A stretch of DNA of 52,521 nucleotides from Macrostomum lignano. Its lineage: Eukaryota. Below, piece after piece: positions 14,283-52,521 of this stretch; position 1 is the first letter of the stretch; each line of letters begins with the position of its first letter. Under the pieces are notes generated by a model. The model was not told the DNA's origin, did not search any database, and saw nothing but the letters and a program-made list of their open reading frames with translations. A program made the position numbers and the translations under genes. The stretch lies in the NCBI GenBank assembly GCA_002269645.1, contig NIVC01002368.1, forward strand, positions 1 through 52,521. Reading direction: 5' to 3'.

Positions 14283-18453
<4,171 letters not shown>

Positions 18454-21430: not shown

Positions 21431-22295
21431 ATGTCAGACATGAAAGAAGTGTCATGTAAAAATTAAAAGAAGCTATTGTGCTGTGCTGGGGAGAATTACT
21501 AAGATGTCAAGGCTCACGAAGAATAACTGAGATTATGGGGAGGCGGTTTCTGAGATGCCAGAGAAGCAAAGTAGCAAACGTCAGAAGCTACTTCAAAGTA
21601 CATGTAGTTTACTCAATTTTTTATTACATTCTTTGTTGGCTCGCTACGGGGGAGGGGGCGCTGATAGAAGAAGAGTCATGTAAAAAAGAGAAGAAGCACT
21701 ATGTGTACATAAAAGAAAAGTCATTATGTCAAAGTTAAAAGATTCATTTGGCAATTGCTACGATGCCAAGGCTTGGAGGGAATCGCTATGGTGCTGTGAT
21801 TCTTAAATAAGGAATCACTAAAATGTCAAGGCTTAGGGGAGAAGAATTGCTGAGATTCAAGGCTTTAGGTTGGGTTAAAGTTAGGTTTAGGTCAGGTTTG
21901 GGTTGAGGGTTAGATTTTAGCGGGTTTCAAGATTAACAGGGGATTTTTCAGATATCAATGTTTATGGGGGCATCGCTAACATGTCAAGGCTTACGGGGGG
22001 GAATAGCTGAGATGTCAAGGCTCACGGGGGAATAACCGAGATGTCAAGGCTAAATTCACAAGCTACATGTAGATGATGTAGTTTATTGAAAAATGTTTTT
22101 TATTATTTGTTGGCTCTTCACGGGAAGGATCGCTGATAGATAAAGTGTAATGTAAAAAATAAAAGAAGCTTCATGTCGAAGTTAAGAGATTCATTTGGGA
22201 ATCCCTACGATGTCGAGGCTTGCAGGGAATCGCTATAATGCTGTAGTGCTATAATGACTCTCGGAGAGAATTACTGAAATGTCAATGCTTTAAGG

Positions 22296-22332
22296 TTAGG
22301 GTTAGGGTTAGGGTTAGGGTTAGGGTTAGGTT
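22296..22332 (+). repeat. Interstitial (TTAGGG)n in H1; homologous tract at ~26852-26922 in H3
   Basis: Read directly. Confidence 0.9.
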
Positions 22333-24809: not shown

Positions 24810-27146
24810 TCGTATATACTAAAAATGAAAATCTTGCTTGATTGCTTGCTTGCTTTCTTGTAATCGATTAGAGAAAAAATGGCTTAACCGATTTTCATGA
24901 GACTTGCACTGTTCGATCAGAAATTTTCCCTTGACGGTACATGCATCGTGGCTAAGAAATTGCTCGATGCTAAAGGCATTAAATATTCGAAAAACATGCT
25001 TTTTTGCAAAGGTCAAGCAAGTTTTTCGACTTGAAATGCATTGTACGAATGCTAGAGAAAAAATTGACTGGTTGATTCTGATTCTGAAATAGATTGCATC
25101 ATAACTGAATTGTAACTCCAACTTGAATTGCGTCACAGTATTGATAATGCAGTGTGGAAGCGTAGCACTAGACTTGATTTAGATTGCGTAACCATATTGT
25201 TAACTGATACTGACTGACTGAGAAATTGATTATGTCATAACTGCCTCGTGTGATTTACTCTATACATGGAGTTTTGAAACTTATAATTATAGAAGTGCTA
25301 AAATTCATGTTATCAAAACGATGACAGCTAGCCTAGAGGTAAACAGACTGACTGCTAAATGCAGGGACGATGGTTCGAATTTTTAGAGAGTGGAGTTTTT
25401 TAATTAAAGTTTTTTAACGCCAAGAAAACTAAAAAATCATGGAAGCGTCATGTAAAAAATCATAAAAGCGTCATGTAAAAAATCATAGAAGCGTCATGTG
25501 AAAATCATAGAAGCGTCATGTAAACAATCATAGAAGCGTCATCTAAAAAGTCATAGAAGCGTCATGAAAAAAATCATAGAAGCGTCATGTAAAAAATCAT
25601 AAAAGCGTCATGTAAAAAATCATAGAAGCGTCATATAAAAATCATAGTAGCGTCATGTAAAAAATCATAGAAGCGTCATATAAAAAGCATAGAAGCGTCA
25701 TGTAAAAATCATAGAAGCGTCATGTAAAAAGCATAGAAGCGTTATGTAAAAAGCATAGAAGCGTCATGTAAACAATCAAAGAAGCGTCATGTAAACAATC
25801 ATAGAAGCGTCATGTAAACAATCATAGAAGCGTCATGTAAAAAATCGAAGAAGCGTCATATAAAAAGCATAGAAACGTCATATAAACAATCATAGAAGCG
25901 TCATGTAAAAAATCATAGAAGCATCATGTAAAAATCATAGAAGCGTCATGAAAAAATCATAGAAGCGTCATTTAAAAACTAATGAAAGTGTCATTTAAAA
26001 AATTAAGAAGCATCATGGTAGAATAAAAGAAGCGTCATGTCAGACATGAAGGGTGTCATGTAAAAATTAAATGCAGCTATAATGCTGTGCTGGGGAGAAA
26101 AACTGAGACGTCAAGGCTCTCAGAGAATAACTGAGATTACGGGGGGGGGGGGTTCTGAGATGTCAAAGCAAAAGTCAGAAGCTACTTCAAAGTTCATGTA
26201 CTTTACTCAATTTTTTTATTGCATTCTTTGTTGGCTCGCCACGGGAGTAGGCGTTGATAGAAGAAGAGTCATGTAAAAAATATAAGTAGCACTAAGTATA
26301 CATAAAAGAAAAGTCATGTCGAAGTTAAAAGATTCATTTGGGAATTGCTACGATGTCTAAGCTTGGTGGAAATCGTTATAGTGCTGTGATTCTTAAAGAA
26401 GGAATCACTAAAATGTCAAGGCTTAGGGGAGAAGAATTGCTGAGATTTCAAGGCTTTAGGTTCGGTTAAAGTTAGGTTTTAGGTCAGGTGTGGGTTGAGG
26501 GTTATATTTTATTGGGTTTCAAGGTTAACAGGGGATTTTTTAGATTTCAAGGTTTATGAGGGCCATCGCTGACATGTCAAGGCTTACGGGGGGAATAGCT
26601 GAGATGTCAAGGCTCACGGGGTATAAATGAGATTTCAAGGCCAAAGCCAGAAGCTACATGTAGTTTATTGAAAACTTTTTATTACATTATTTGATGCCTC
26701 AAATAATGTCGAAGTTTCATGTCGAAGCTTCATGTCGAAGTTAAGAGATTCATTTGGGAATCCCTACGACGTCGAGGCTTGCAGGGAATCGCTATAATGC
26801 TGTAGTAGTGCTATAATGACTCTTAGAGAGAATTACTGAAATTTCAATGCTTTAGGGTTAGGTTAGGGTTAGACTAGGGTTAGGGTTAGGGTTAGGGTTA
26901 GGGTTAGGCTAGGGTTAGGGTTAGAAGGTTGACAGATATTTTTAGATTTCCAAGGCTTATTGGGGGCATTGCTGAGATGTCAAGGGGGGAAGTTGATATG
27001 TTAAAGCTTGTGGGGGGAATTACTGACATGTCAAGGCTTACAAGGTTTGACAGGAGATTTTTTAAGATTTCAAGGATACATGTAGCTTATTAAAAAAACG
27101 TATATTGTATTTCTTTGGCTCCCCAACGGGGGGCATAGATTGCTAG
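24810..27146 (+). mobile_element. Non-autonomous Helitron H3 (close relative of H1)
   Basis: Begins TCGTATATACTAAAAATG; ends CCCCAACGGGGG...GATTGCTAG|T; colinear with H1. Confidence 0.78.
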
Positions 27147-39359: not shown

Positions 39360-40988
39360 ATTTTGGCGCCGCAGGCACTAATTTTAGCGCCACAGGCACT
39401 CATTTTGGCGCTGCAGGCACTCATTTTGGCGCCACAAGCACTCATTTTAGCGCAGCAGGCAACCATTTTAGCGCCGCAGGCACTCATTTTAGCGCCGCAG
39501 GCACTCATTTTAGCGCCGCAAGCACTCATTTTGGCGCCTCAAGCACTCATTTTAGCGCCGCAAGCACTCATTTTAGCGCCGCAAGCACTCATTTTGGCGC
39601 CGCAGACACTCATTTTGGCGCCGCAGGCACTCATTTTAGCGCCGCAGGCACCTATTTGAGCACCGCACGCACCATTTTAGCGCCACAGGCACTCATTTTG
39701 GCGCCGCAGGCACTAATTTTAGCGCCACAGGCACTCATTTTGGCGCTGCAGGCACTCATTTTGGCGCCGCAAGCACTCATTTTAGCGCAGCAGGCAACCA
39801 TTTTAGCGCCACAGGCACTCATTTTAGCGCCACAGGCACTCATTTTGGCGCCACAAGCACTCATTTTGGCGCCGCAGGCACTCATTTTGGCGCCTCAAGC
39901 ACTCATTTTAGCGCCGCAAGCACTCATTTTAGCGCCGCAAGCACTCATTTTGGCGCCGCAGACACTCATTTTGGCGCCGCAGGCACTCATTTTAGCGCCG
40001 CAGGCACCTATTTGAGCACCGCACGCACCATTTTAGCGCCGCAGGCACTCATTTTGGCGCCGCAGGCACTCATTTTAGCGCCACAGGCACTCATTTTAGC
40101 GCAGCAGGCACTCATTTTAGCGCCGCAAGCACTCATTTTAGCGCCGCAGGCACTCATTTTATCGCCGCAGGGACTTATTTTAGCGCCACAGGCACTCATT
40201 TTAGCGCCGCAGGCACTCATTTTAGCGCCGCAGGCACTCATTTTAGCGCCGCAGGCACTCATTTTAGCGCCGCAGGCACTCATTTTAGCGCCGCAGGCAC
40301 TCATTTTAGCGCCGCAGAAACTCATTTTATCGCCGCAGGGACTTATTTTAGCGCCACAGGCACTCATTTTAGCGCCGCAGGCACTCATTTTAGCGCCACA
40401 GGCACTCATTTTAGCGCAACAGGCACTCATTTTAGCGCCGCAGGCACTAATTTTAGCGCCGCAGGCACTCATTTTAGCGCCACAGGCACTCATTTTAGCG
40501 CTGCAAGCACTCATTTTGGCGCCTCAAGCACTCATTTTAGCGCAGCAGGCAACCATTTTAGCGCCACAGGCACTCATTTTAGCGCCGCAGGCACTTATTT
40601 TGGCGCCACAAGCACTCATTTTATCGCCGCAGGCACCTATTTGAGCACCGCACGCACCATTTTAGCGCCGCAGGCACTCATTTTGGCGCCGCAGGCACTC
40701 ATTTTAGCGCCACAGGCACTCATTTTAGCGCAGCAGGCACTCATTTTAGCGCCGCAGGCACTCATTTTATCGCCGCAGGGACTTATTTTAGCGCCACAGG
40801 CACTCATTTTAGCGCCGCAGGCACTCATTTTAGCGCCGCAGGCACTCATTTTAGCGCCGCAGGCACTCATTTTAGCGCCGCAGGCACTCATTTTAGCGCC
40901 ACAGGCACTCATTTTAGCGCAGCAGGCACTCATTTTAGCGCCGCAGGCACTCATTTTAGCGCCGCAGACACTCATTTTATCGCCGCAG
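39360..40988. repeat. 21-bp satellite (TTTT[A/G]GCGCCGCAGGCACTCA)n with higher-order blocks
   Basis: About 75 copies; the marker CCTATTTGAGCACCGCACGCACC recurs at ~39650, 40007 and 40636. Confidence 0.97.
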
Positions 40989-42470
40989 ACTACTAAGCAA
41001 CGGCAGATGGCTTGATTTTGGAGGTGAGGTGGGTGTCAACCCTCCTCGCCTCTCATTGGCTGGCGCCCCGATCACTAGGTGATCGATACCCGTATCGATA
41101 TCGGCGCTCGGCGCGCGCGCGCCGCAGGCGCGTGGCGCCAAGCGCCGTCCAGCCGCAGGCGACCCTCCCCAGCCACCGGCGACCCTCCCCAGCCGCAGGC
41201 GCACCTACCGATATGTATGCCCACCCTACCGATATGTACCCCGATATGTACACCCTCCCGAGCCGCAGGCGCACCCTCCCGAGCCGTAGGCGCCCATGCC
41301 GCAGACGCCCATGCCGCAGGCACCCCGAGTGTACACTCTACCGAGCCGCAGGCACCCCGAGTGTACACTCTACCGATATGTACACTCTACCACTCTCCCG
41401 ATATGTAGTCAACGATATTAGGCTAGTGAAAACTACTTATAGTAGGTGAAATTGAGTATATTTACATAAAAATGTAGATAAAACATATTGGTAGGTGAAT
41501 AATGACGCATATTGCATATTGGAGCATATGAGCAGCAAAAAACACACAATGTAGGTGTATGGGCAGAAATAGACAAAGCAGGTACTGTAGGCGCTACATA
41601 GGTGGAAATACACACACAGCAGGTGCATACATACACACAATGTAGGTGCAAATTGAGTATAATACAGGAAAATTACATAGCATATAATGTAGGCGCATTT
41701 TAAACGATACATTTTGCATATTAACCCGCAGGCACAAATTTCAGTGCATAGGATAAAATACACACACTGGAAGTTAAGTATAATACAACATATGTATGCA
41801 AAATTAAGCATATAATGTAGGTGCAAAGTAAAATATCCAGCCCAGGATATTCGAGACACGCCCCCAGAGTCAGGGCCGGGGGATCCCAATGTACAGTGCG
41901 GGCGGAGTAACAGAGAAATTCCTCCCCAGGGCCGGGGGATCCCAAGTACAGTGCGGTCAGAGAGGAGTAACATAGAGAAATTCCTCCCCAGGGCCGGGGG
42001 ATCCCAAGTACAGTTCAGGCAGAGAGCATTCCAATCCTCCCCAAATGGGGGGGTTATCAAAGACCCCTCACATTGCACAGGGCGGGCAGAATAACAGACC
42101 GCATACAAATAGGGGTTTTAGCGGATCCCAAGTACAGTGCGCTCCATGGTGTTAAATGAGGAAGGATCCCGCCCCAATGTACATTGGAGGTAGAGTAACA
42201 GACCGCATACAAAGAGAATTCCAGTCAAACTTTACCGCAGCTCCCACCCCAAATGAGGGTTTTAGTGGATCCCCAGAGGGTAGCTCTCCAAGTTGAGGGA
42301 TCCCCCCAGTGTGTTGCGAGGCCCAAGTACAGTGCATGCAGAGAGTAACAGAGTACAAAGAGAAATTCCCTTATCAGTCAAACTCGAGCGCGATCTTCAG
42401 CCAGGGCAGTCTCCTCCTCATCAGCGCTCTCGAAACATCTGTCAAAGTAAAAATATTCAATGTAGACAGA
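40989..42470 (-). mobile_element. Outer Polinton-like element, terminal part (TIR from 40989; resumes at 51750 after the nested insertion)
   Basis: ACTACTAAGCAACGGCAGATGGCTTGATTTTGG terminus and ~650 bp homologous to the inner TIR. Last exon CFESADEEETALAEDRARV* is homologous to the inner CFESVEEEAAYETALRERMEID*. Confidence 0.85.
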
Positions 42471-43380
42471 ACTACTAAGGACTGGCAGATGTGTTGATTT
42501 TGGGAGGGGGGTGGGTGTCAACCCTCCTCGCCTCTCATTGGCTGGCGCCCCGATCACTAGGTGATCGATACCCGTATCGATATCGGCGCTCGGCGCGCGC
42601 GCGCGCCGCAGGCGCGTGGCGCCAAGCGCCGTCCAGCCGCAGGCGACCCTCCCCAGCCGCAGGCGACCCTCCCCAGCCGCAGGCGACCCTCCCCAGCCGC
42701 AGGCGCACCTACCGATATGTATGCTCACCCTACCGACATGTACCCCGATATGTACACCCTCCCGAGCCGCAGGCGACCTTCCCCAGCCGCAGGCGCCCAT
42801 GCCGCAGACGCCCATGCCGCAGGCACCCCGAGTGTACACTCTACCGAGCCGCAGGCACCCCGAGTGTACACTCTACCGATATGTACACTCTACCACTCTC
42901 CCGATATGTAGTCAACGATATTAGGCTAGTGAAAACTACTTATAGTAGGTGAAATTGAGTATATTTACATAAAAATGTAGATAAAACATATTGGTAGGTG
43001 AATAATGACGCATATTGCATATTAAAATGTACATATTGGAGCATATGAGCAGCAAAAACACACAATGTAGGTGCATGGGCAGAAATAGACAAAGCAGGTA
43101 CTGTAGGCGCTACATAGGTGGAAATACACACAGCAGGTTTACAAAGTGTACTTTCGATACATATCGGATTAATGTATAAAGCAGGTTTACAAGGCATGCA
43201 TAAGGTGTAGTTGTATAATACAGGCACGCATGTATAATCAGATTATAGGCAAACGCCCAGGTGCAATTTCAACAGACGCGTAAATAATGTCACACCGACT
43301 AAAGAGTAAATATTGTCTAACCCGCAGGTGCATAAATATTTTAAACAAAAGCGGTTCGGGGAAATCCCAAAAGGGAGGTT
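42471..43380 (+). repeat. Left TIR (910 bp)
   Basis: Reverse complement of 50844-51743; identity ends at ...AAAGGGAGGTT. Confidence 0.95.
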
Positions 43381-43740
43381 CACGGCCTAATGACCCGATA
43401 TACTTTCAACACAATTAAACCCACAAGTGGGCTAGAAAAATGGACAACGTATTTCGATTGCGCTATCAGTACGCTAATCAGCGCAGCAAGTTTATGTCAG
43501 GAGTTCTACTCCAAGAGGCGGACCGCTGGGCCACAAACCGCCCCGAGGGAATAGGTGTCAAATGGGAGTTTTAACACTTGAGGGGATCCCGCTCAATGTA
43601 CAGTGGAGGTGCCAAATGAGTAGGGACCCCTAAGTACAGTGCGGGCGTAAAACCATTTTCATCCCCACGAGTCAAGGGATCCCAAGTGGGCGCATAGGGG
43701 AATCCCAGGCGTAAAAAAAAGATAGATCCTTATCTTTCAC

Positions 43741-46700
43741 TCACTCCCGAAAGCCATACGGGCGGCTAGCGGCCCCATACACCCTCTTAGTCATTACGCG
43801 CTGGAAAGTCTTGTCCATCTCGAGGGTCCGGATTGTACAGCTAGCCTTATCGCGCCTGAACTGGGCCTGGGGCAGGCGTACAGTCCCGCCGTGACGCAGA
43901 ATTTCCTGCAGCTCGTCCTCGCGCTCGGAAATCTCGGGCGTGACTCTGATGCCCTTGCACTTGAGTACCGAGTACAGCGACCTGTCGGGCTTCTCCACCA
44001 CGTACCGGTAGAGCTTGGGGCCTCCCGTGGTGAACTGTACCATGCGGCAGCCGGCAGGTACCTCGTCAGTCCACTGCCCCAAACTCGAACCGCCCGGAGG
44101 CTCGTACTCGCCCGGGGAGCAGCGGTATACGACCCTGGGAGGAGGAGAAGGATAAAAAAGTGTTAAGGGGAGAAAGAGAGACAGAGACAGTGAAAAAATT
44201 ACTTACGAATCGGTATCGGCGTAAATGACGCGGGTTCCTAGACCCTCCAGAGCCTCGTAGAGTCGCAGCCGGGCGTGGGAGGTGGTGAAAACGCCAATAG
44301 GTACATTAGCGTACTTGAACGCCCGCTCGCCAGCACCGCCAAATCGGGGCTTGTACTCGAGCATCATGAAGCTCTCCCCAATTGGCTCGCACGACTTGAC
44401 CTTGATCGAGGGGTCTGTCAGGCGCTGCAGCCACGCCTCGTAGCTGTCCACAATCTCTGTGGAGGTCAGGTCGTCGCGCTGGCAGAACTTGCCCCAGAGC
44501 CTGCAGGGGAAAAATAAATTTTTTTTGTAAGTAGAAAAACATGGTCCCCACTGCAAGTAGAAAAACTTACGAGTTTAGAAAAATCTTGGCAACAAAGCGC
44601 AGGCCAGGATTTTCTTCCACCTTTTCCAGCCGGACGCCTTCGCGCTCGAAAAAGCTGGCCATGTAGGCAGCCTTGGCGTCCTCAGCCATCCCCGGCGAAC
44701 CGCTAGACTCGGCTTTGAGCTTCAAAAAAGTGTTTACATAATCTGCAAACAGACCCGTGCGAGTCTCGGTCCAATAGGCCAGGGCATGAACTGACTGCAG
44801 CTTGTAACCCAACTGCAGGGCCTTGTGGAGCTCTGGGGTCGACCACGTGCCGCGGAGCATTCTCTCAGCGTCAGTGTGTGTACACTCGCTGCTGCACTGG
44901 GTCTCCATGCAGACGCGGCAGAGGCCGAAAACCAGCTTCTTGTTAATCTTGGCGGGCAGTAGCGGGATGTGGAGATTGGTTGGCGGCAGAATCGACACCT
45001 CGGCGATGCCAAAATACCGGGCCAGCTGCAGCTCATCCAGTAGATGAGGCTCGGGGTGGTGTACCGGGTGCCCGACAGGGTACTTGTCAAACTTGTTGAC
45101 AGTCGGGTAGAGCGACACCTAGGGGATAAGGATAATAGAGAATTAGAGGATAAGATAAACTCAAACGCATGTCAACTGTGTGTGTACAAGTGTACAAACT
45201 TACCACATCCCGATAGCGCAGCTCTACAGTCTCGGTGGCCTCGGCGTGCGGGACAAAAGCCTCGGTACGGCCGCCAAACAGGGCATCCTCCAGGCGGATA
45301 GGCTGCTGGACTGGCGCTCCCTCGTCCTGATAGTCGTGCTCCCACAGAACACGCACATTGTATGCAGTGGAGAGCAGCCGGGTGAAGCGCTCAGTCTCCT
45401 CATAAATCGCCCGCATTGGCTGGTTCTTGAGCGGGTGCAGCACGTCGCCGTTGGGGAAGCACTTGGGACAGCCATGGTAGAAGCAGCCATGAAACTGCAG
45501 CACTGTCCTGGTCTCTGGGTCGAAGCCGTCGACCTTACGGCCCATGGCGAAAGCCTCGCCGCCCGAGTCCGCTGTCCGCAACCGGCCGCCAAACTCGGTT
45601 GCATTCAAATGCGCAAGCCAGCACCGCGCCTTGTGCGACTGTACATCGGACCGGCGGGAAATCACCCCAAGAGTGTTGGGCTCCATAAACTTGGTGGTGA
45701 AAACAGCCATAGCCAAGCCCGCAATGGTGTTGGATTGGACAAATGCGTCCAGTCCGCAAATGTCCTTAATCAGGCGGGTGTACTTTAGACAGCCTTCCCG
45801 CAAAATTAACGTGTCCTGCAGGCAGTAGTCCAGGTACTCCTTATTGAAATTAAACACCTGTCCCTCCTGCTTGGCCAGCCAGTCTGCGATGGAGTCGTGC
45901 TGCTTGTTTTTCTTTCCTCCATACATATCAATTGAGCAGTAGGGTCCCACGTACCCCCAATTTTCCGGCTGGTTAAACACGTGCGGGAAATCTCCTTTGG
46001 TCAGTTGGGTGCCCAAACCAAGCGCCTTTGGGAATTGCGCCAGACCAATAGGGATGAAATTGAGGCTGTCCTTGAAGGTGATCTTGTCGCACTTCATACA
46101 TTAGGCGGCTGTTCTGGAAGATCACTTGCGGCTTCTTCTTGGCCAGTCCGTTGAGTAGGCGCCGAGCAGGAGGAATGCGTCATACGCAGAGCCATTGTGC
46201 GCAATAGCAATTGCCCCCTGCTTGAACACACTAGTCAGCCAGCAGTAAAAGGCATCGATAGAGTGCGGCCCGACAGATACAAACTCTCGCATCCCACAGG
46301 CACAGTCATTGTGCGAGACACAGCTCGTGAAATCGAGTGCCAAATCGCGTCCCGCAATGCAATTGGCTGAGCTGTGTAGTCCCCCGCACACGCTGCAGCG
46401 GGGCCTGGGGAAGAGTTTGGGACACGCCTCGCAGGAGGTGGCAGCCGTAACCAAGTGTACCCGGTGCTGCTTGCCAGAGTCCACGTACGTCTCGAAATCA
46501 TAGTAAACATACGGGGCGCTAGACTCTTTGGCTTTGGCGGGGTGACAAAGCACTCGTGGGTGGCAGTTTCGTCGTACTGCTTGCAGACTGGGCACTTGGC
46601 ATAACCACACTGATGCTCAGGGGGCTGGCCTACTTTTAGTTCTTCTAGATAGCCACACGTGCCGCAAACGTGGACTGAATCACAGCGCGATCTGCCGGCC

Positions 46701-48628
46701 TTATTCTTGCGCTTGTGATTTTCTAGGCACTGAGCATTATAGCAATTTAGCCCGCAATCATGGCATCTTACATATGCGCGGTTTGCCTTACAGTTGGAGC
46801 CCGGAGTCTTGCATGTACTGCAGGCATCAGCGCACTTGTGCTTCTCATAATTGCAGTCGTAGGCCATCTCGCACTTGGGGCAGTAGTGATCGGAGCCGAA
46901 AAACGCAGGCAGCTTGGTGACCACATTAAAGTGCTGCTCGACCAGGTGTAGGTGCAGAATCTCGGTGCCAGGCAGGTTGAAGATGCACCTGTTGGCCTCC
47001 TCTGCGCGGTACACGCGTACACCAAAATCGTGCCCTGGATGCAGCCGGTTCAGGGCTCGGATCGCTTCGGGCAGTGCATCCACCCCGAAAGGACCGGCCT
47101 GCGAGACGATTTGATGAGTCTGTGTAGGGGGTAAAATATTTCTTTTAGTATTCCCTGATACTGTGTAAAAAATCTTATCAGAAAATATATCTTTTAGTAT
47201 TCCATGATACTGTGTAAAAATCTTATCAGAAAATATATCTTTTAGTATTCCATGATACTGTGTAAAAATTCTTATCAGAAAATATATCTTTTAGTATTCC
47301 ACGATACTGTGTAAAAATTCTTATCAGAAAATATTTTTTAGTATTCCACGATACTGTGTAAAAATTCTTATCAGAAAAATACTAGAAACTTACCGTGTAG
47401 AGGCCAGCTTCGATTTGTAGCTCAGTCGCAAGCTTAGTCTGCTTGGACGAATTGGCCTTGATTGTACGCCACACCTGCATGGTGATGGACTTGGCCACGA
47501 ATTGCAGGTAGGCGCAGGCCACGACCAGAGCGCGCAGCAGGCATCTCTTGTCCGAGTTGGTGATGCGGACATAGTGCTTGGAGAAGGCGTGCCGCTCTTC
47601 TAGATGCTTGTTCTCGAGAGCACATCCACCTCGAGGCACCCAGGCCTTTAGCAACCGGATAGAAAAGTTGCCCGTCAGGACAGTGGCATCCGACTGTACA
47701 ATCTTGTTGATGTGCTTAAACAACAATTCAGCCGTCATGCGGGATGCACGCACCGGGGGAGTGTGGGCCGCTTTGAGCATATTGTCGCTCTCGAATTTCG
47801 CGGCCATAAAGTCATCACCAGCCAAATCTTGCTTGAAAACTTCGAGCATGTCAGCAAACACCTCCCGCAAATCTTCGGTGTTGGTAATATGCACCACATA
47901 CTCGACACCCTTTGCCCTAAACTTGGGCAGGTCACGCTGATTATCCAGCCGGGCCGTAAAACCTGCATGGGGGGAATGGGGGAGTGTGAGTCAGCTAGGG
48001 TCTGTGTGGGAAATGGGGGGCTGGATAACTCACCCGGTCCGGTAACAGATTCCGGCTGTGTTGGCGGGACAAACGCGTCTGAAAAAACACAAGGAGATAA
48101 AAAACCAGAAGAATCTGTCATTTTCCTGGCCCCAGCGTGTTTCCCCGCCCTAGCCCCAGCAATTTCTTAACAGAGTTTACTCTGCTGTCCCCGCAGCAAC
48201 TCTCTGCAATTTCTTATCTGCACCCCCGCTGCAGCCTGTCGCAGCAGTCTTTGTTTACTCACCCCTGCAACTCTCTGTCGCAGCAATTTGCACCCCAGCT
48301 GCAGCCTGTCTGGACAACACCCCCCTAGCAGCAATTTCTTATCAGCACACACCCGGCTGAAACTTGTCTAGCCCTCCCCTGCAACTCTCTGTTACAGACC
48401 CTGCCGCAGCACCCCACCCTAGCAACTCCAGTCTAGACCCCTGCAGCTGTCGCAGCAGTCTTTGTTGTTTACTCTGCGGTCCCACAGACCCTGCAGCTGC
48501 TGCTGCTGCTCAGCCCCTACCCCCACCCTAGCAACTACAGTCTAGACAGAAATTAATTAAAACTTACCATAAAGACGTTGCCTCTTGTCAGCCAGGAAAG
48601 CAGTTGCTGCGGCGCTGCGTTTAGCCAT
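43741..48628 (-). CDS. pPolB: Protein-primed family-B DNA polymerase, 7 exons (48628-48568, 48078-48034, 47962-47394, 47119-45204, 45118-44571, 44500-44207, 44134-43741), ~1,275 aa; 3 frameshifts in exon 4
   Basis: Exo I YDFET, Exo II AHNGSAYD, KDSLNF, Exo III YCLQD, Vsr-like insert VDGFD...FHGCFYHGCPKC, FGGRTE, motif A YRDV|VSLYP, motif B KIFLNS|LWGKF, motif C YADTDS|V, GPKLY and KCKG. Every junction is GT-AG and phase-compatible. Confidence 0.95.
47136..47385. repeat. ~55-60-bp tandem repeat in pPolB intron 3
   Basis: TTTTAGTATTCCAYGATACTGTGTAAAAATTCTTATCAGAAAAT repeated 4-5 times. Confidence 0.9.
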
Positions 48629-48659
48629 TTTGCAAACAGAGAGCGTGAGAGAGCGGAGA

Positions 48660-48867
48660 GAGAAGGATTTATCTCTCTACCCTGGCTCTGGGGGTCTGTA
48701 TATATACTAAAAAATCTGCTCAGCTCGCCTGTTATTGGATAAATCGCCAAAAACCAACCAAAATCATCAAAAATCACCCCAAAATCATCACCCACCCCAC
48801 CCTCCATCCGGGGGTATATAAGGCGCTGCACGGCTGTCAGAGAGCTCTCTGCTGCTGCTGCTAAATC
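48660..48867. promoter_or_regulatory. Compact bidirectional promoter with TATA boxes at 48699-48706 (pPolB) and 48815-48821 (PC4-like)
   Basis: Each TATA lies 50-70 bp from a divergent ATG; the region is conserved in the outer element (52330-52521). Confidence 0.7.
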
Positions 48868-49400
48868 ATGTCTTCTATCTCTCTATACGAAAACTTTGTG
48901 GCGCGGAAGCCCACATTTGAAACTGAACACAACTTGATTGAAATTCGGCGTCTCTACACCAACGAGGCCGGAGTGTGGAAGGACGGCTTCCCTGCAATCT
49001 ACTTGGCCGAGCCAGAGTGGAAGAAGCTCGAAGCTGCGCGCCCTGACCTGGAGGCTGCTGCCCGCCTTCACGTGAACAAGCGGGTCCTGTTGGGCAATTT
49101 CAAGGCAGTTGAAGCTTCGCGAGGGAGGATCCGTTTGCTGCGCAATTGGCTCAATCAGGACCCAAAGTTTAATTGGCGCTACACGATCGAATTCACGCCT
49201 GAACTGTGGCGCCGGATGTTTGCCGCCCGTTTGGACAAGCTCTTCAAGCCGGCACCTGAGGCACCCCTCCAGCCAAGCGAGTCAAGACAGACACGCCTCC
49301 GGTAGCCGGGACTGAGGTGGATGTTCTTCAGCTCATGGGTCTCAAACCCTACCAATCTCCACCCTGGGAAAATCTGTTTAACGAGGGTTGGGACTGCTAG
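48868..49400 (+). CDS. Tandem PC4/Sub1-like putative ssDNA-binding protein; as written it stops at 49305, with +1 C at ~49265 it ends ...PPPAKRVK...WENLFNEGWDC* at 49400
   Basis: IEIRRLYTNEAGVWKDGFPAIYLAEPEWKKL aligns by eye with PC4 [31 protein letters not shown]. A second unit follows (VLLGNFKAV...RYTIEFTPELWRRM). The outer copy has 5 C where this copy has 4. Confidence 0.6.
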
Positions 49401-49516
49401 TTTCCTATTGGTTCGCACCGCCTCACTCGATCCGTCTATATAATTAGTGTTTCCCCCCTCTCCAGAGAGTCAAACCCTATCTCAGCTCTAATACTTTACT
49501 CTCTGTTGATTCTAGC

Positions 49517-50530
49517 ATGTCCCGCCGAGCTCTATCCAACCTCTGGGATAATAATCGCCCGACTGAAGAGTTAACCAGCCTCGACGGGGATATCCCTGAA
49601 CACATAGTTCCCCTAGGCACTGAAAACAACGGAAGTGATAATTGGGAGGCTGATCAATATCTAGCTTGGGCTATGTCCTATGATAGCGACACCGAGTCTG
49701 AAGTTTTTGACCTCCCGCTGCTGGCTATCGGCGGGGTTGTGAACGGTGCCCCTGCTGCTACTGCCTCCGATTTGACTACCGCCTCAGCCGCCCTCTTTGA
49801 CGTCTCTGTTGAGGAGCTGACCACAACCGGCCCTGCCTCTGCTGCGCCCGTCTCTGCTGCTGCCGCCTCTACTACGCCCGTCTCTGCTGCTGCTTCAACT
49901 ACCTCCCACCGGGCCTCAATATCATCAGCCGCTACGCTCCTTCTCTTCGACGACGAGGACGAGGATATGTCTGAGGAGATCGCCGTGGTTCGTGAGCGCT
50001 TTCCTCGCATTGTGGCCTCATTTTTCCGCGGGGACATTGACTGGCTGAGGTCTCGGCATCCTGGCGGGCTGCCCTCCCAAGCTACCTTTGTCAGAGCCTT
50101 TAATCGGGTTCTTGATACTTTGGTTGCGAGGGGTGCCGGCCTACGGGAGGTGTTGGAGGCTGAGACTCTGCACCAGGACTGGTTGATGGGGCGCAATTCG
50201 TATGCCCCGACTCTGAGGCGTACCTGGCCGGTCCGGGAGCGCGGCCAACTGCGTGGGATGAGCCCGCCGCATGGCCCTCCAACTGGGAGGAGCACCTTTC
50301 GTTGGTGCGCTATACAGCGTCTCTACGTCTGTGGCGGCTGGAGGACGATTTAGATTTGGTAAGATATTACATTATATACACAACTCATCTAATCATATAC
50401 CTTGCATATATTCTATCTACATTGACTGTTATAATTTCCACATTGCCAGTCATCCGACTACTGCTTCGAGAGCGTGGAGGAAGAGGCCGCGTACGAGACA
50501 GCCCTGAGGGAGCGTATGGAGATTGACTGA
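49517..50530 (+). CDS. ORF3, orphan (acidic/low-complexity N-half, helical C-half); probable intron 50359-50449 and last exon 50450-50530; one frameshift near 50170-50280
   Basis: 278-aa ORF. TTG|GTAAGA donor and TTGCCAG| acceptor give ...EDDLDL|SSDYCFESVEEE...ID*; both sites have counterparts in the outer element. Confidence 0.6.
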
Positions 50531-50843
50531 TAAGGGTATTTCTCTTTGTACGCGGTTTGGGGAACCCAACACTGTACACTGGGTAGGTTAGAATGGGCGC
50601 TAGCTGGGGGGCCTCTATGTGTGTATACACGGGGGTTAAAAGACCAATTCTGATAGCTCGCTCCTAGGGAGGAAATTGGCAGAGGGGCCGGCCCAAAAAA
50701 CTGAAATGGGCTGGCCCCGGGCTCGAGTCCACCCACCTAAAATATGGAGGTCATTACAACCTAATGACTCGAAATACTTTCAACGCAATTGTACCTATAA
50801 GAGGGTTAGGGCGGCGGCGGCGGTGGCGAAAACGGGCGGCTAA

Positions 50844-51743
50844 AACCTCCCTTTTGGGATTTCCCCGAACCGCTTTTGTTTAAAATTTTTATGCACCTGC
50901 GGGTTAGACAATATTTACTCTTTAGTCGGTGTGACATTATTTACGCGTCTGTTGCACCTGGGCGTTTGCCTATAATCTGATTATACATGCGTGCCTGTAT
51001 TATACAACTACACCTTATGCATGCCTTGTAAACCTGCTTTATACATTAATCCGATATGTATCGAAAGTACACTTTGTAAACCTGCTGTGTGTATTTCCAC
51101 CTATGTAGCGCCTACAGTACCTGCTTTGTCTATTTCTGCCCATACACCTACATTGTGTGTTTTTGCTGCTCATATGCTCCAATATGTACATTTTAATATG
51201 CAATATGCGTCATTATTCACCTACCAATATGTTTTATCTACATTTTTATGTAAATATACTCAATTTCACCTACTATAAGTAGTTTTCACTAGCCTAATAT
51301 CGTTGACTACATATCGGGAGAGTGGTAGAGTGTACATATCGGTAGAGTGTACCTGGGCTCGGTAGAGTGTACACTCGGGGTGCCTGCGGCTCGGTAGAGT
51401 GTACACTCGGGGTGCCTGCGGCATGGGCGTCTGCGGCATGGGCGCCTACGGCTCGGGAGGGTGCGCCTGCGGCTCGGGAGGGTGTACATATCGGGGTACA
51501 TGTCGGTAGGGTGAGCATACATATCGGGTGCGTGCGCCTGCGGCTGGGAGGGTCGCCGCGGCTGGGGAGGGTCGCCTGCGGCTGGACGGCGCTTGGCGCC
51601 ACGCGCCTGCGGCGCGCGCGCGCCGAGCGCCGATATCGATACGGGTATCGATCACCTAGTGATCGGGGCGCCAGCCAATGAGAGGCGAGGAGGGTTGACA
51701 CCCACCCCCTCCAAAATCAACACATCTGCCAGTCCATAGTAGT
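50844..51743 (-). repeat. Right TIR (900 bp)
   Basis: Ends ...AGTCCATAGTAGT, followed by the TSD. Confidence 0.95.
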
Positions 51744-51749
51744 GACAGA

Positions 51750-52521
51750 TTATATGTAATTATACGATTTATATGAAATTAAGCTTACCAAAATCGGGTT
51801 CGCGCTGTACGGATACGGCACGCCTCAATTAGCAACCCTCGTCAAACAGATTTCCCAAGGGTAGGGTTGATGCTGTCAAGGCAGTCCTGCAGATTGTCCT
51901 CTGTCTTGACTCGCTTGGCTGGAGGGGGTGCCTCAGGTGCCGGCTTGAAGAGCTTGTCCAAACGGGCGCAAACATCCGGCGCCACAGTTCAGGCTTGAAT
52001 TCGATCGTGTAGCGCCAATTAAACTTTGGGTCCTGATTGAGCCAATTGCGCAGCAAACGGATCCTCCCTCGCGAAGCTTCAACTGCCTTGAAATTGCCCA
52101 ACAGGACCCGCTTGTTCAGTGAAGGCGGGCAGCAGCCTCCAGGTCAGGCGCGCAGCTTCGAGCTTCTTCACTCTGGCTCGGCCAAGTAGATTGCAGGGAA
52201 GCGTCCTTCCACACTCCGGCCTCGTTGGTGTAGAGACGCCCGAATTTCAATCAAGTTGTGTTCAGTTTCAAATGTGGGCTTCCGCGCCACAAAGTTTTCG
52301 TATAGAGAGATAGAAGACATGATTTAGCAGCAGCAGCAGAGAGCTCTTCTGACAGCCGTGCAGCGCCTTATATACCCCGGATGGAGGGTGGGGTGGGTGA
52401 TGGATTTTGGGGTGATTTTTGATGATTTTGGTTGGTTTGGCGATTGACAATAACAGGCGAGCTGAGCAGATTTTTTAGTATATATACAGACCCCCAGAGC
52501 CAGGGTAGAGAGATAAATCCT
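51750..52521 (-). mobile_element. Continuation of the outer element: PC4-like gene copy (~52321-51829, many 1-nt deletions), promoter, ORF3 largely absent
   Basis: Reverse-complement match to 48660-49390; then ~40 bp to a GTAAG donor at ~51787. Confidence 0.9.

What the first reader, a model, noticed from the sequence alone, without database searches (positions are those of the whole stretch)
44134..45204. Three spliceosomal introns split polymerase motifs A, B and C
Seen: introns of 85, 70 and 72 nt fall at YRDV|VSLYP, FLNS|LWGKF and DTDS|VVY, all with GTAAG donors and in-frame joins. Three more introns lie 5'. Known: Polinton/adenovirus-type pPolB genes are generally intron-poor. Inference: long nuclear residence with host-type intron gain, in which replication would depend on host splicing. 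The positions also hide the gene from ORF-based searches, which could explain why such a family has been missed.
Basis: partly seen in the sequence, partly recalled or inferred. Interest (0 to 1): 0.72.

Follow-up and report, generated by a model that had tools for sequence, protein, structure and literature searches.

The report
Spliced polymerase of a stripped-down Polinton
A 9-kb virus-derived jumping element in an animal genome has lost its capsid and integrase genes but keeps a DNA polymerase gene cut by six real host-type introns, three of them inside the catalytic motifs, which is unusual for a group described as intron-free but is also seen in some distant relatives.

Summary
Observation confirmed. 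GT-AG introns of 85, 70 and 72 nt split motifs A, B and C of a Polinton-type polymerase (Pfam PF03175, VSR-type pPolB2), with three more upstream. Contigs of three probable-RNA runs from three studies join A and B, one joins C; the fourth run, taken as DNA, shows none. Copies keep the introns, put their indels in them, and change mostly silently in exons. The gene lies in a 9.3-kb element with ~900-bp TIRs and 6-bp target duplications (7 of 7 copies), but no integrase or capsid gene. A sister family (71% identical) has the same three positions with different intron sequences. The motif-B position is not unique: one distant relative has it in DNA, and 15 of 150 top relatives end at that motif. 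Others have introns outside motifs, including a complete Polinton. Public gene models already splice these exons, so 'missed because hidden' is weak. Best reading: a self-copying Polinton derivative that needs host splicing and borrows its integrase. This scan noted intron-split Polinton polymerases in other genomes before. New variant of a known kind.

The parts
42465..42470 (.). 6-bp target-site duplication, left copy
   Evidence: same hexamer follows the right end; X17 and two other runs hold the site without the element (9290-nt skip)
42471..43380 (+). Left terminal inverted repeat (~900 bp), begins ACTACT
43741..44134 (-). pPolB exon 7 (after motif C, to stop)
   Evidence: ORF 43741-44202; spliced X5 contig
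44135..44206 (-). Intron C, 72 nt, phase 2, inside motif C (DTDS|V)
   Evidence: (one contig)
44207..44500 (-). pPolB exon 6 (motif B to motif C)
44501..44570 (-). Intron B, 70 nt, phase 2, inside motif B (NS|LWGK)
   Evidence: joined in 3 of 3 RNA? runs, 0 of 1 presumed DNA run
44571..45118 (-). pPolB exon 5 (motif A to motif B)
   Evidence: PF03175 E 4.9e-13
45119..45203 (-). Intron A, 85 nt, phase 0, inside motif A (DV|VSLYP)
   Evidence: joined in 3 of 3 RNA? runs, 0 of 1 presumed DNA run
45204..47119 (-). pPolB exon 4: Cys-rich region, exonuclease, VSR-like insert; no intron in 1.9 kb; frame broken in this copy
   Evidence: PF03175 E 5.2e-16; open frames over this stretch in other copies; VSR label by eye, after PMC10748475
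47120..47393 (-). Intron 3, 274 nt, phase 0, holds five 49-bp tandem repeats
47394..47962 (-). pPolB exon 3 (N-terminal region)
   Evidence: no Pfam hit
47963..48033 (-). Intron 2, 71 nt, phase 1, GTGAG donor
   Evidence: joined in 3 of 3 RNA? runs
48034..48078 (-). pPolB exon 2, 45 nt
48079..48567 (-). Intron 1, 489 nt, phase 1
   Evidence: joined in 2 of 3 RNA? runs
48568..48628 (-). pPolB exon 1, 61 nt from the inferred ATG
   Evidence: start codon inferred
48868..49305 (+). ORF2, probable PC4-like single-stranded-DNA-binding protein
   Evidence: lead only: atlas score 0.89 to PF02229 clusters, PDB PC4 at E 0.62; 28% identical, E 9e-10, to a gene of a complete Polinton of the same genome
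49517..50530 (+). ORF3, acidic and Ala-rich, no family; 91-nt GT-AG intron at 50359-50449; frame in this copy uncertain
   Evidence: intron joined in 3 of 3 RNA? runs; no informative Pfam or atlas hit
50844..51743 (-). Right terminal inverted repeat, ends AGTAGT
51744..51749 (.). 6-bp target-site duplication, right copy

Best explanation
The gene is the polymerase of a reduced Polinton (Maverick) derivative. Host RNA polymerase transcribes it and the host spliceosome removes six ordinary U2-type introns, giving a protein-primed B-family polymerase of about 1275 aa (splicing shown on contigs; length by hand). The polymerase, with the PC4-like protein, copies an excised linear element from its repeated ACTACT ends (inferred from Polinton and adenovirus biology). 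Insertion with a 6-bp duplication is done by a Polinton-type integrase supplied in trans, because the element encodes none (duplications shown; helper inferred). The introns were gained before two resident families split, are kept because removal is exact and a DNA-to-DNA replicator has no regular route to lose them, and fall in the motifs because the conserved Val, Ser and Gly codons there offer G|GT and AG|GT proto-splice sites, and an insertion in a catalytic motif survives only if it is spliced out cleanly (inferred).
For: Splice joints in three studies and none in the fourth run. 45 near-full copies of exon 5 at 95-100% identity, 43 of 45 with the same 180-183 aa stop-to-stop frame, and 26 copies of a 68-72% sister family (counted by eye). 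Silent changes dominate in exons, indels in introns. 6-bp duplications, all different, in 7 of 7 copies checked and in 1 of 1 sister-family copy. Element length 9.3-9.7 kb in four other copies; no stretch left that could hold an integrase or capsid gene. At least 120 Polinton-integrase and 96 capsid matches elsewhere in the genome. A variable stretch near the tip of the TIR differs between copies but matches between the two ends of a copy, as panhandle-type replication would give. Same A, B, C positions with unlike intron sequences in the sister family. Exon borders read G|GT or AG|G at all three sites; relative L143 has the intron at AG|T where its near relative L130 has TCC and no intron.
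Against: No helper found: the one complete Polinton whose ends I mapped has the opposite end motif, AGTAGT//ACTACT; the other integrase-bearing families were not mapped. Polymerase activity and free linear DNA were not observed. The RNA label of the runs is a guess, only contigs were laid, and intron C rests on one contig. The window's copy is frame-broken. The proto-splice idea is after the fact, and the window's B and C donors follow TC, not AG. No tree could be built, so gain versus loss is not resolved.
Confidence: 0.72

Rival explanations
1. The motif-B intron (and perhaps A and C) is ancient in VSR-type pPolB2 and was inherited; most Polinton lineages lost it through reverse-transcribed copies.
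For: Exactly the same codon and phase in the window, in L143 and, inferred from protein ends, in P0005, P0006, P0038, P0052, P0060, P0102, P0121, P0163, P0167, P0179.
Against: 23 of 24 scorable distant loci have motif B intact (some are near-duplicates). Intron-type proteins are scattered: P0102 is 51% identical to intronless P0078 but 40-47% to the other intron-type proteins; P0060 is 58% to intronless P0028; P0052 is 54% to intronless L083 (margins are small). Ser codon type differs (TC|G here, AG|T in L143), and other proteins break one to six codons further on.
Confidence: 0.15
2. Introns sit in the motifs because they protect the gene from a homing-type nuclease: the VSR or HNH insert of competing Polinton polymerases cuts conserved motif codons, and an intron there removes the target.
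For: Three of six introns fall in about 30 of about 1275 codons (hand estimate of chance about 3e-4, after the fact), with none in the 1.9-kb exon before them. 15 of 150 top relatives end 0-10 residues after motif B against 39 spread over the next 190. pPolB2 carries nuclease inserts (PMC10748475); homing endonuclease genes are described in Polinton-like viruses (PMC11296320; PMC12220804).
Against: No target or activity is known for the insert. A relative family has two introns outside the motifs with A, B and C intact (L138, L141, L144), and L083 has its intron in the VSR insert itself.
Confidence: 0.08
3. The gene is a domesticated host gene or a dead relic, and the introns are ordinary host-gene introns.
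For: It is transcribed and spliced like a host gene; the window's copy is frame-broken.
Against: Dozens of dispersed 95-100% identical copies, each between TIRs with its own target duplication, one nested in another element, and an empty site in run contigs.
Confidence: 0.05

Closest known systems
Polintons/Mavericks (Alpha adintoviruses; VSR-type pPolB2 of marine nematode and mollusc Polintons, PMC10748475)
   Same: PF03175 polymerase with a VSR-like insert, 41-53% identical over exon 5 to the non-flatworm top relatives; long TIRs; 6-bp duplications; repeated-trinucleotide ends; a PC4-like gene shared with a complete Polinton of this genome.
   Different: 9.3 kb rather than 13-25 kb; no integrase, ATPase, protease or capsid genes; six introns in pPolB where intact vertebrate and nematode elements are described as intronless; end motif ACTACT//AGTAGT, the reverse of the common AGTAGT//ACTACT (PMC8097293).
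Introner-containing Polinton-like proviruses of dinoflagellates (PMC12166617)
   Same: Spliceosomal introns inside Polinton-related elements.
   Different: Those are young intron-generating transposons in protists. Here the introns are old, unlike each other and unlike their counterparts in the sister family, and under continued selection for splicing. I did not test them for introner repeats genome-wide.
Non-autonomous DNA transposons and capsid-less pPolB replicons (linear plasmids; recalled)
   Same: Borrowed integrase like a non-autonomous transposon; polymerase, TIRs and no capsid like a linear plasmid.
   Different: It keeps its own replicase under purifying selection yet is integrated in many copies in an animal nucleus; I found no description of that combination in 8 literature searches.

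Membership tests
U2-type spliceosomal introns | GT..AG ends, pyrimidine tract, exact removal from RNA | tested here: met
   intron C on one contig only
Group I/II self-splicing introns | Rfam-detectable ribozyme core, length of hundreds of nt | tested here: not met
   70-85 nt; 0 Rfam matches in 40900-52521
Polinton/Maverick | Protein-primed B-family polymerase | tested here: met
   PF03175 above cut-off in two exons; motifs A, B, C present after splicing
Polinton/Maverick | Long TIRs and 5-8 bp target duplication | tested here: met
   ~900-bp TIRs; 6-bp duplications in 7 of 7 copies
Polinton/Maverick | Retroviral-like integrase gene | tested here: not met
   no rve hit in the element's ORFs; none of the 120 listed integrase matches lies in the window's contig
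Polinton/Maverick (polintovirus) | Major and minor capsid, packaging ATPase, protease genes | tested here: not met
   none of 96 listed capsid matches lies in the window's contig; no unassigned room; ATPase and protease judged by ORF content only
Polinton/Maverick | Intronless core genes (descriptive trait in PMC8097293 and 10.1101/2022.07.12.499685) | tested here: not met
   six introns in pPolB, one in ORF3
VSR-type pPolB2 | VSR nuclease insert between exonuclease and polymerase domains | tested here: inconclusive
   a Cys/His motif typical of it is seen by eye at that place; no profile or structure test run
Polinton/Maverick | Protein-primed replication of a free linear form | not testable with these tools
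   only indirect: matched variable TIR tips

The most novel reading that the evidence does not exclude
The catalytic motifs of VSR-type Polinton polymerases are hot spots where spliceosomal introns are gained again and again in unrelated animal lineages, possibly because an intron there shields the gene from nuclease attack by rival Polintons; and this element stands for an undescribed class of polymerase-only, splicing-dependent satellites that parasitise complete Polintons for integration.
Probability: 0.15. Interest if true: 0.8.

Novelty: new variant of a known kind. Interest (0 to 1): 0.5.

Why it matters
Polinton core genes are treated as intronless, and surveys have scored gene-model 'introns' in them as signs of decay (PMC8097293) or required five core proteins to call an element (PMC10748475), so spliced or reduced families like this one would be filtered out or counted as dead. 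The ancestral state of these genes is probably intron-free, and they replicate through DNA, so they offer a clean test of how and where spliceosomal introns are gained, including repeated gain at one codon. The reduced element also shows a possible path from virus to plain transposon in an animal nucleus.

Tried and rejected
No scripts ran (machine lost), so there is no tree, no dN/dS and no computed statistic; all counts are by eye and the probabilities by hand. 'No RNA holder listed' on record is not used as evidence. The rve family search was dominated by long retrotransposon-like frames and was uninformative. Viral-contig scans with exon 5, P0006 and a DNA pattern for the motif-B donor found nothing. 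A single-sequence fold of ORF2 failed (pLDDT 35) and was not searched. ORF3 gave no family. In one search one frame for the last exon was wrong; the right frame gave no Pfam hit either. I considered a two-segment virus (polymerase segment plus capsid/integrase segment with shared ends); the one complete element mapped has other ends and its own polymerase, and the C340/C593 family carries at least the start of its own polymerase gene; other families were not mapped, so this is unsupported rather than excluded. An excess of protein starts at motif A among relatives was looked for and is not clear (about 8 in the first 20 positions against about 25 in the next 90). A direct comparison of L130 with L143 failed twice on frame. 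Two key papers were not held (PMC1450207, PMC11426020); Repbase and all supplements were not seen and may describe spliced or reduced Polintons.

Full report
Observation. Three more lie upstream (489, 71 and 274 nt). The exons on either side of intron A match Pfam PF03175 above its cut-off. Bins over the introns are 39-43% GC against 47-67% elsewhere. The script machine was lost, so every count below is by eye and every probability by hand.

Splicing. I laid 4 of the 24 listed runs on the element. All are contigs, and 'RNA' is the tool's guess. Introns A and B are skipped in 3 of 3 RNA? runs from three studies and in 0 of 1 run of unknown type that I took as DNA. One X5 contig is joined across both C and B; C is not among the joint rows shown. 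The 71-nt intron is joined in 3 of 3 runs, the 489-nt in 2 of 3, the 274-nt in 1 of 3, and a 91-nt intron in ORF3 in 3 of 3. No joint is shown within the 1.9-kb fourth exon (19 rows were hidden).

Selection. In 11 of the copies held all GT and AG dinucleotides are invariant. About 10 indel places lie in 227 intron bases and 1 in about 1045 coding bases; coding changes are about 32 silent to 7 amino-acid changing. The motif-C donor pattern is in 20 of 20 loci of this family. The window's own copy is frame-broken in exon 4 near 46100, 46160 and 46535, while other copies have long open frames there.

The element. The gene sits in a unit at 42471-51743 with ~900-bp TIRs that start ACTACT. Each of 7 copies checked has its own 6-bp target duplication, and three runs hold the window's site without the element. 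Exon 5 has 45 near-full matches at 95-100% identity and 26 at 68-72% among 128 matches (lower bounds). Besides the polymerase there is a probable PC4-like gene (lead only; homologous to a gene of a complete Polinton of this genome) and an acidic ORF of no family. There is no integrase or capsid gene, although the genome has at least 120 Polinton-integrase and 96 capsid matches elsewhere. The one complete element I mapped is 16.8 kb, has an uninterrupted polymerase frame and the usual AGTAGT ends, so it is not an obvious helper. The sister family is also about 9.5 kb with ~900-bp TIRs, ACTAC ends, a 6-bp duplication and no integrase or capsid frame in the one copy examined. It has introns at the same three codons with unlike sequences, so the introns are older than the split. 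The nearest named proteins, up to 94% identical, are UniRef gene models labelled Macrostomum lignano, and they already join these exons.

How special are the positions? Two unnamed proteins at 61-66% identity run exactly from motif A to motif B, and a third ends at motif C (P0001, P0002, P0041), pointing to further carriers of the same introns. Among the best 150 of 4026 relatives, 15 end 0-10 residues after motif B, against 39 over the next 190 positions (about 2 expected; one of the 15 is from this clade). I read all 15 and 40 of the 150 (P0002). Eight stop at the very codon of intron B, six of them with Arg for Ser, which is what AG followed by a GT donor gives; others stop one to ten codons later. 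DNA confirms one case: L143 has a 67-nt phase-2 intron in that Ser, while its near relative L130 has none. Against generality, 23 of 24 scorable distant loci have motif B intact (L132 is cut by its contig end; L124-126 and L135/L145 are near-duplicates). Against strict motif targeting, L138, L141 and L144 carry introns between the motifs, and L083, a complete Polinton with integrase, ATPase, protease and capsid frames, has A, B and C intact but a GT-AG intron in the VSR-like insert. These outside introns are inferred from DNA only. Identities suggest that intron-type proteins are each closer to an intronless protein than to most other intron-type ones, but margins are small and this is no tree.

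Mechanism. Shown: host-type splicing, purifying selection, recent independent insertions with 6-bp duplications, no integrase or capsid gene. Inferred: protein-primed copying from the repeated ends, supported only by TIR tips that vary between copies but match within a copy; an integrase borrowed from complete Polintons; intron gain at proto-splice sites in conserved codons. Three of six introns in about 30 of about 1275 codons has a rough after-the-fact chance of 3e-4, so some bias is likely; its cause is open.

Literature. I read passages, found by term, of PMC8097293 (no introns in intact vertebrate Mavericks; end motifs), bioRxiv 10.1101/2022.07.12.499685 (core genes intronless, cargo genes with introns), PMC10748475 (VSR-type pPolB2; five-protein filter), PMC12166617 (introners in dinoflagellate Polinton-like proviruses), PMC8502044, PMC11296320, PMC12220804, PMC6431247 and 10.64898/2026.10.13.758929; none in full, no supplements. 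Eight searches listed no paper on spliceosomal introns in animal Polinton polymerases or on a polymerase-only Polinton; PMC1450207, PMC11426020 and Repbase were not available. Earlier unchecked notes of this scan report intron-split Polinton polymerases in other genomes; none matched this sequence. They agree but are not evidence.

Verdict. The element works like a Polinton but fails the integrase and capsid criteria, so I file it as a reduced derivative, not a member in the strict sense. The introns are unusual against the literature but not unique among undescribed relatives. New variant of a known kind; interest 0.5.

Noticed in passing
window 42479-42500 and 51714-51735; L021-L032 element ends: A stretch about 10-28 nt inside the TIR tip comes in several variants among otherwise ~97% identical copies, yet the two ends of each copy match (one mismatch in 2 of 7 copies).
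   Followed up: partly
window 40989-42464 and 51750-52521: The element is inserted into a second, oppositely oriented copy of a subtype with a different ORF3 region; that outer copy is cut by the contig end.
   Followed up: partly
L063 2714-2796; rows with 867-873 aa frames: In the sister family intron A is 81 nt, in frame and without a stop, so ORF callers read it as a 27-residue insertion in motif A.
   Followed up: partly
L019 (G000:C4072 near 14540) and G000:C2932 near 66800: Copies of this element appear to have inserted into the capsid gene of an integrase-bearing Polinton family; the two may be one event.
   Followed up: no
L107 6328-6900, L075 1743-2360, L078 7604-8167, L115 4145-4702: Several complete Polinton families of this genome carry a gene that looks like TATA-binding protein, some also dUTPase-like and nucleoside-kinase-like genes (by eye, not tested).
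   Followed up: no
G000 C2301, C3189 (integrase pairs), C1313 (capsid pair), C3085, C4430, L065 (polymerase): Polinton genes occur as inverted pairs 2-10 kb apart, suggesting palindromic or fold-back copies.
   Followed up: no
L130-L146: Seventeen contigs filed under bacterial MAGs encode animal-type Polinton polymerases, some with spliceosomal introns, so they are probably host DNA in the bins.
   Followed up: partly
L083 5549-5669: A complete Polinton has one GT-AG intron inside the VSR-like motif of its polymerase.
   Followed up: partly
window 39360-40988, 14970-16358, 22290-22330, 26852-26924: A 21-nt satellite of 78 copies abuts the outer element; a 1.4-kb TAGT run and two short TTAGGG arrays lie further left.
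   Followed up: no
window 47133-47378: Intron 3 is mostly five copies of a 49-nt repeat.
   Followed up: no
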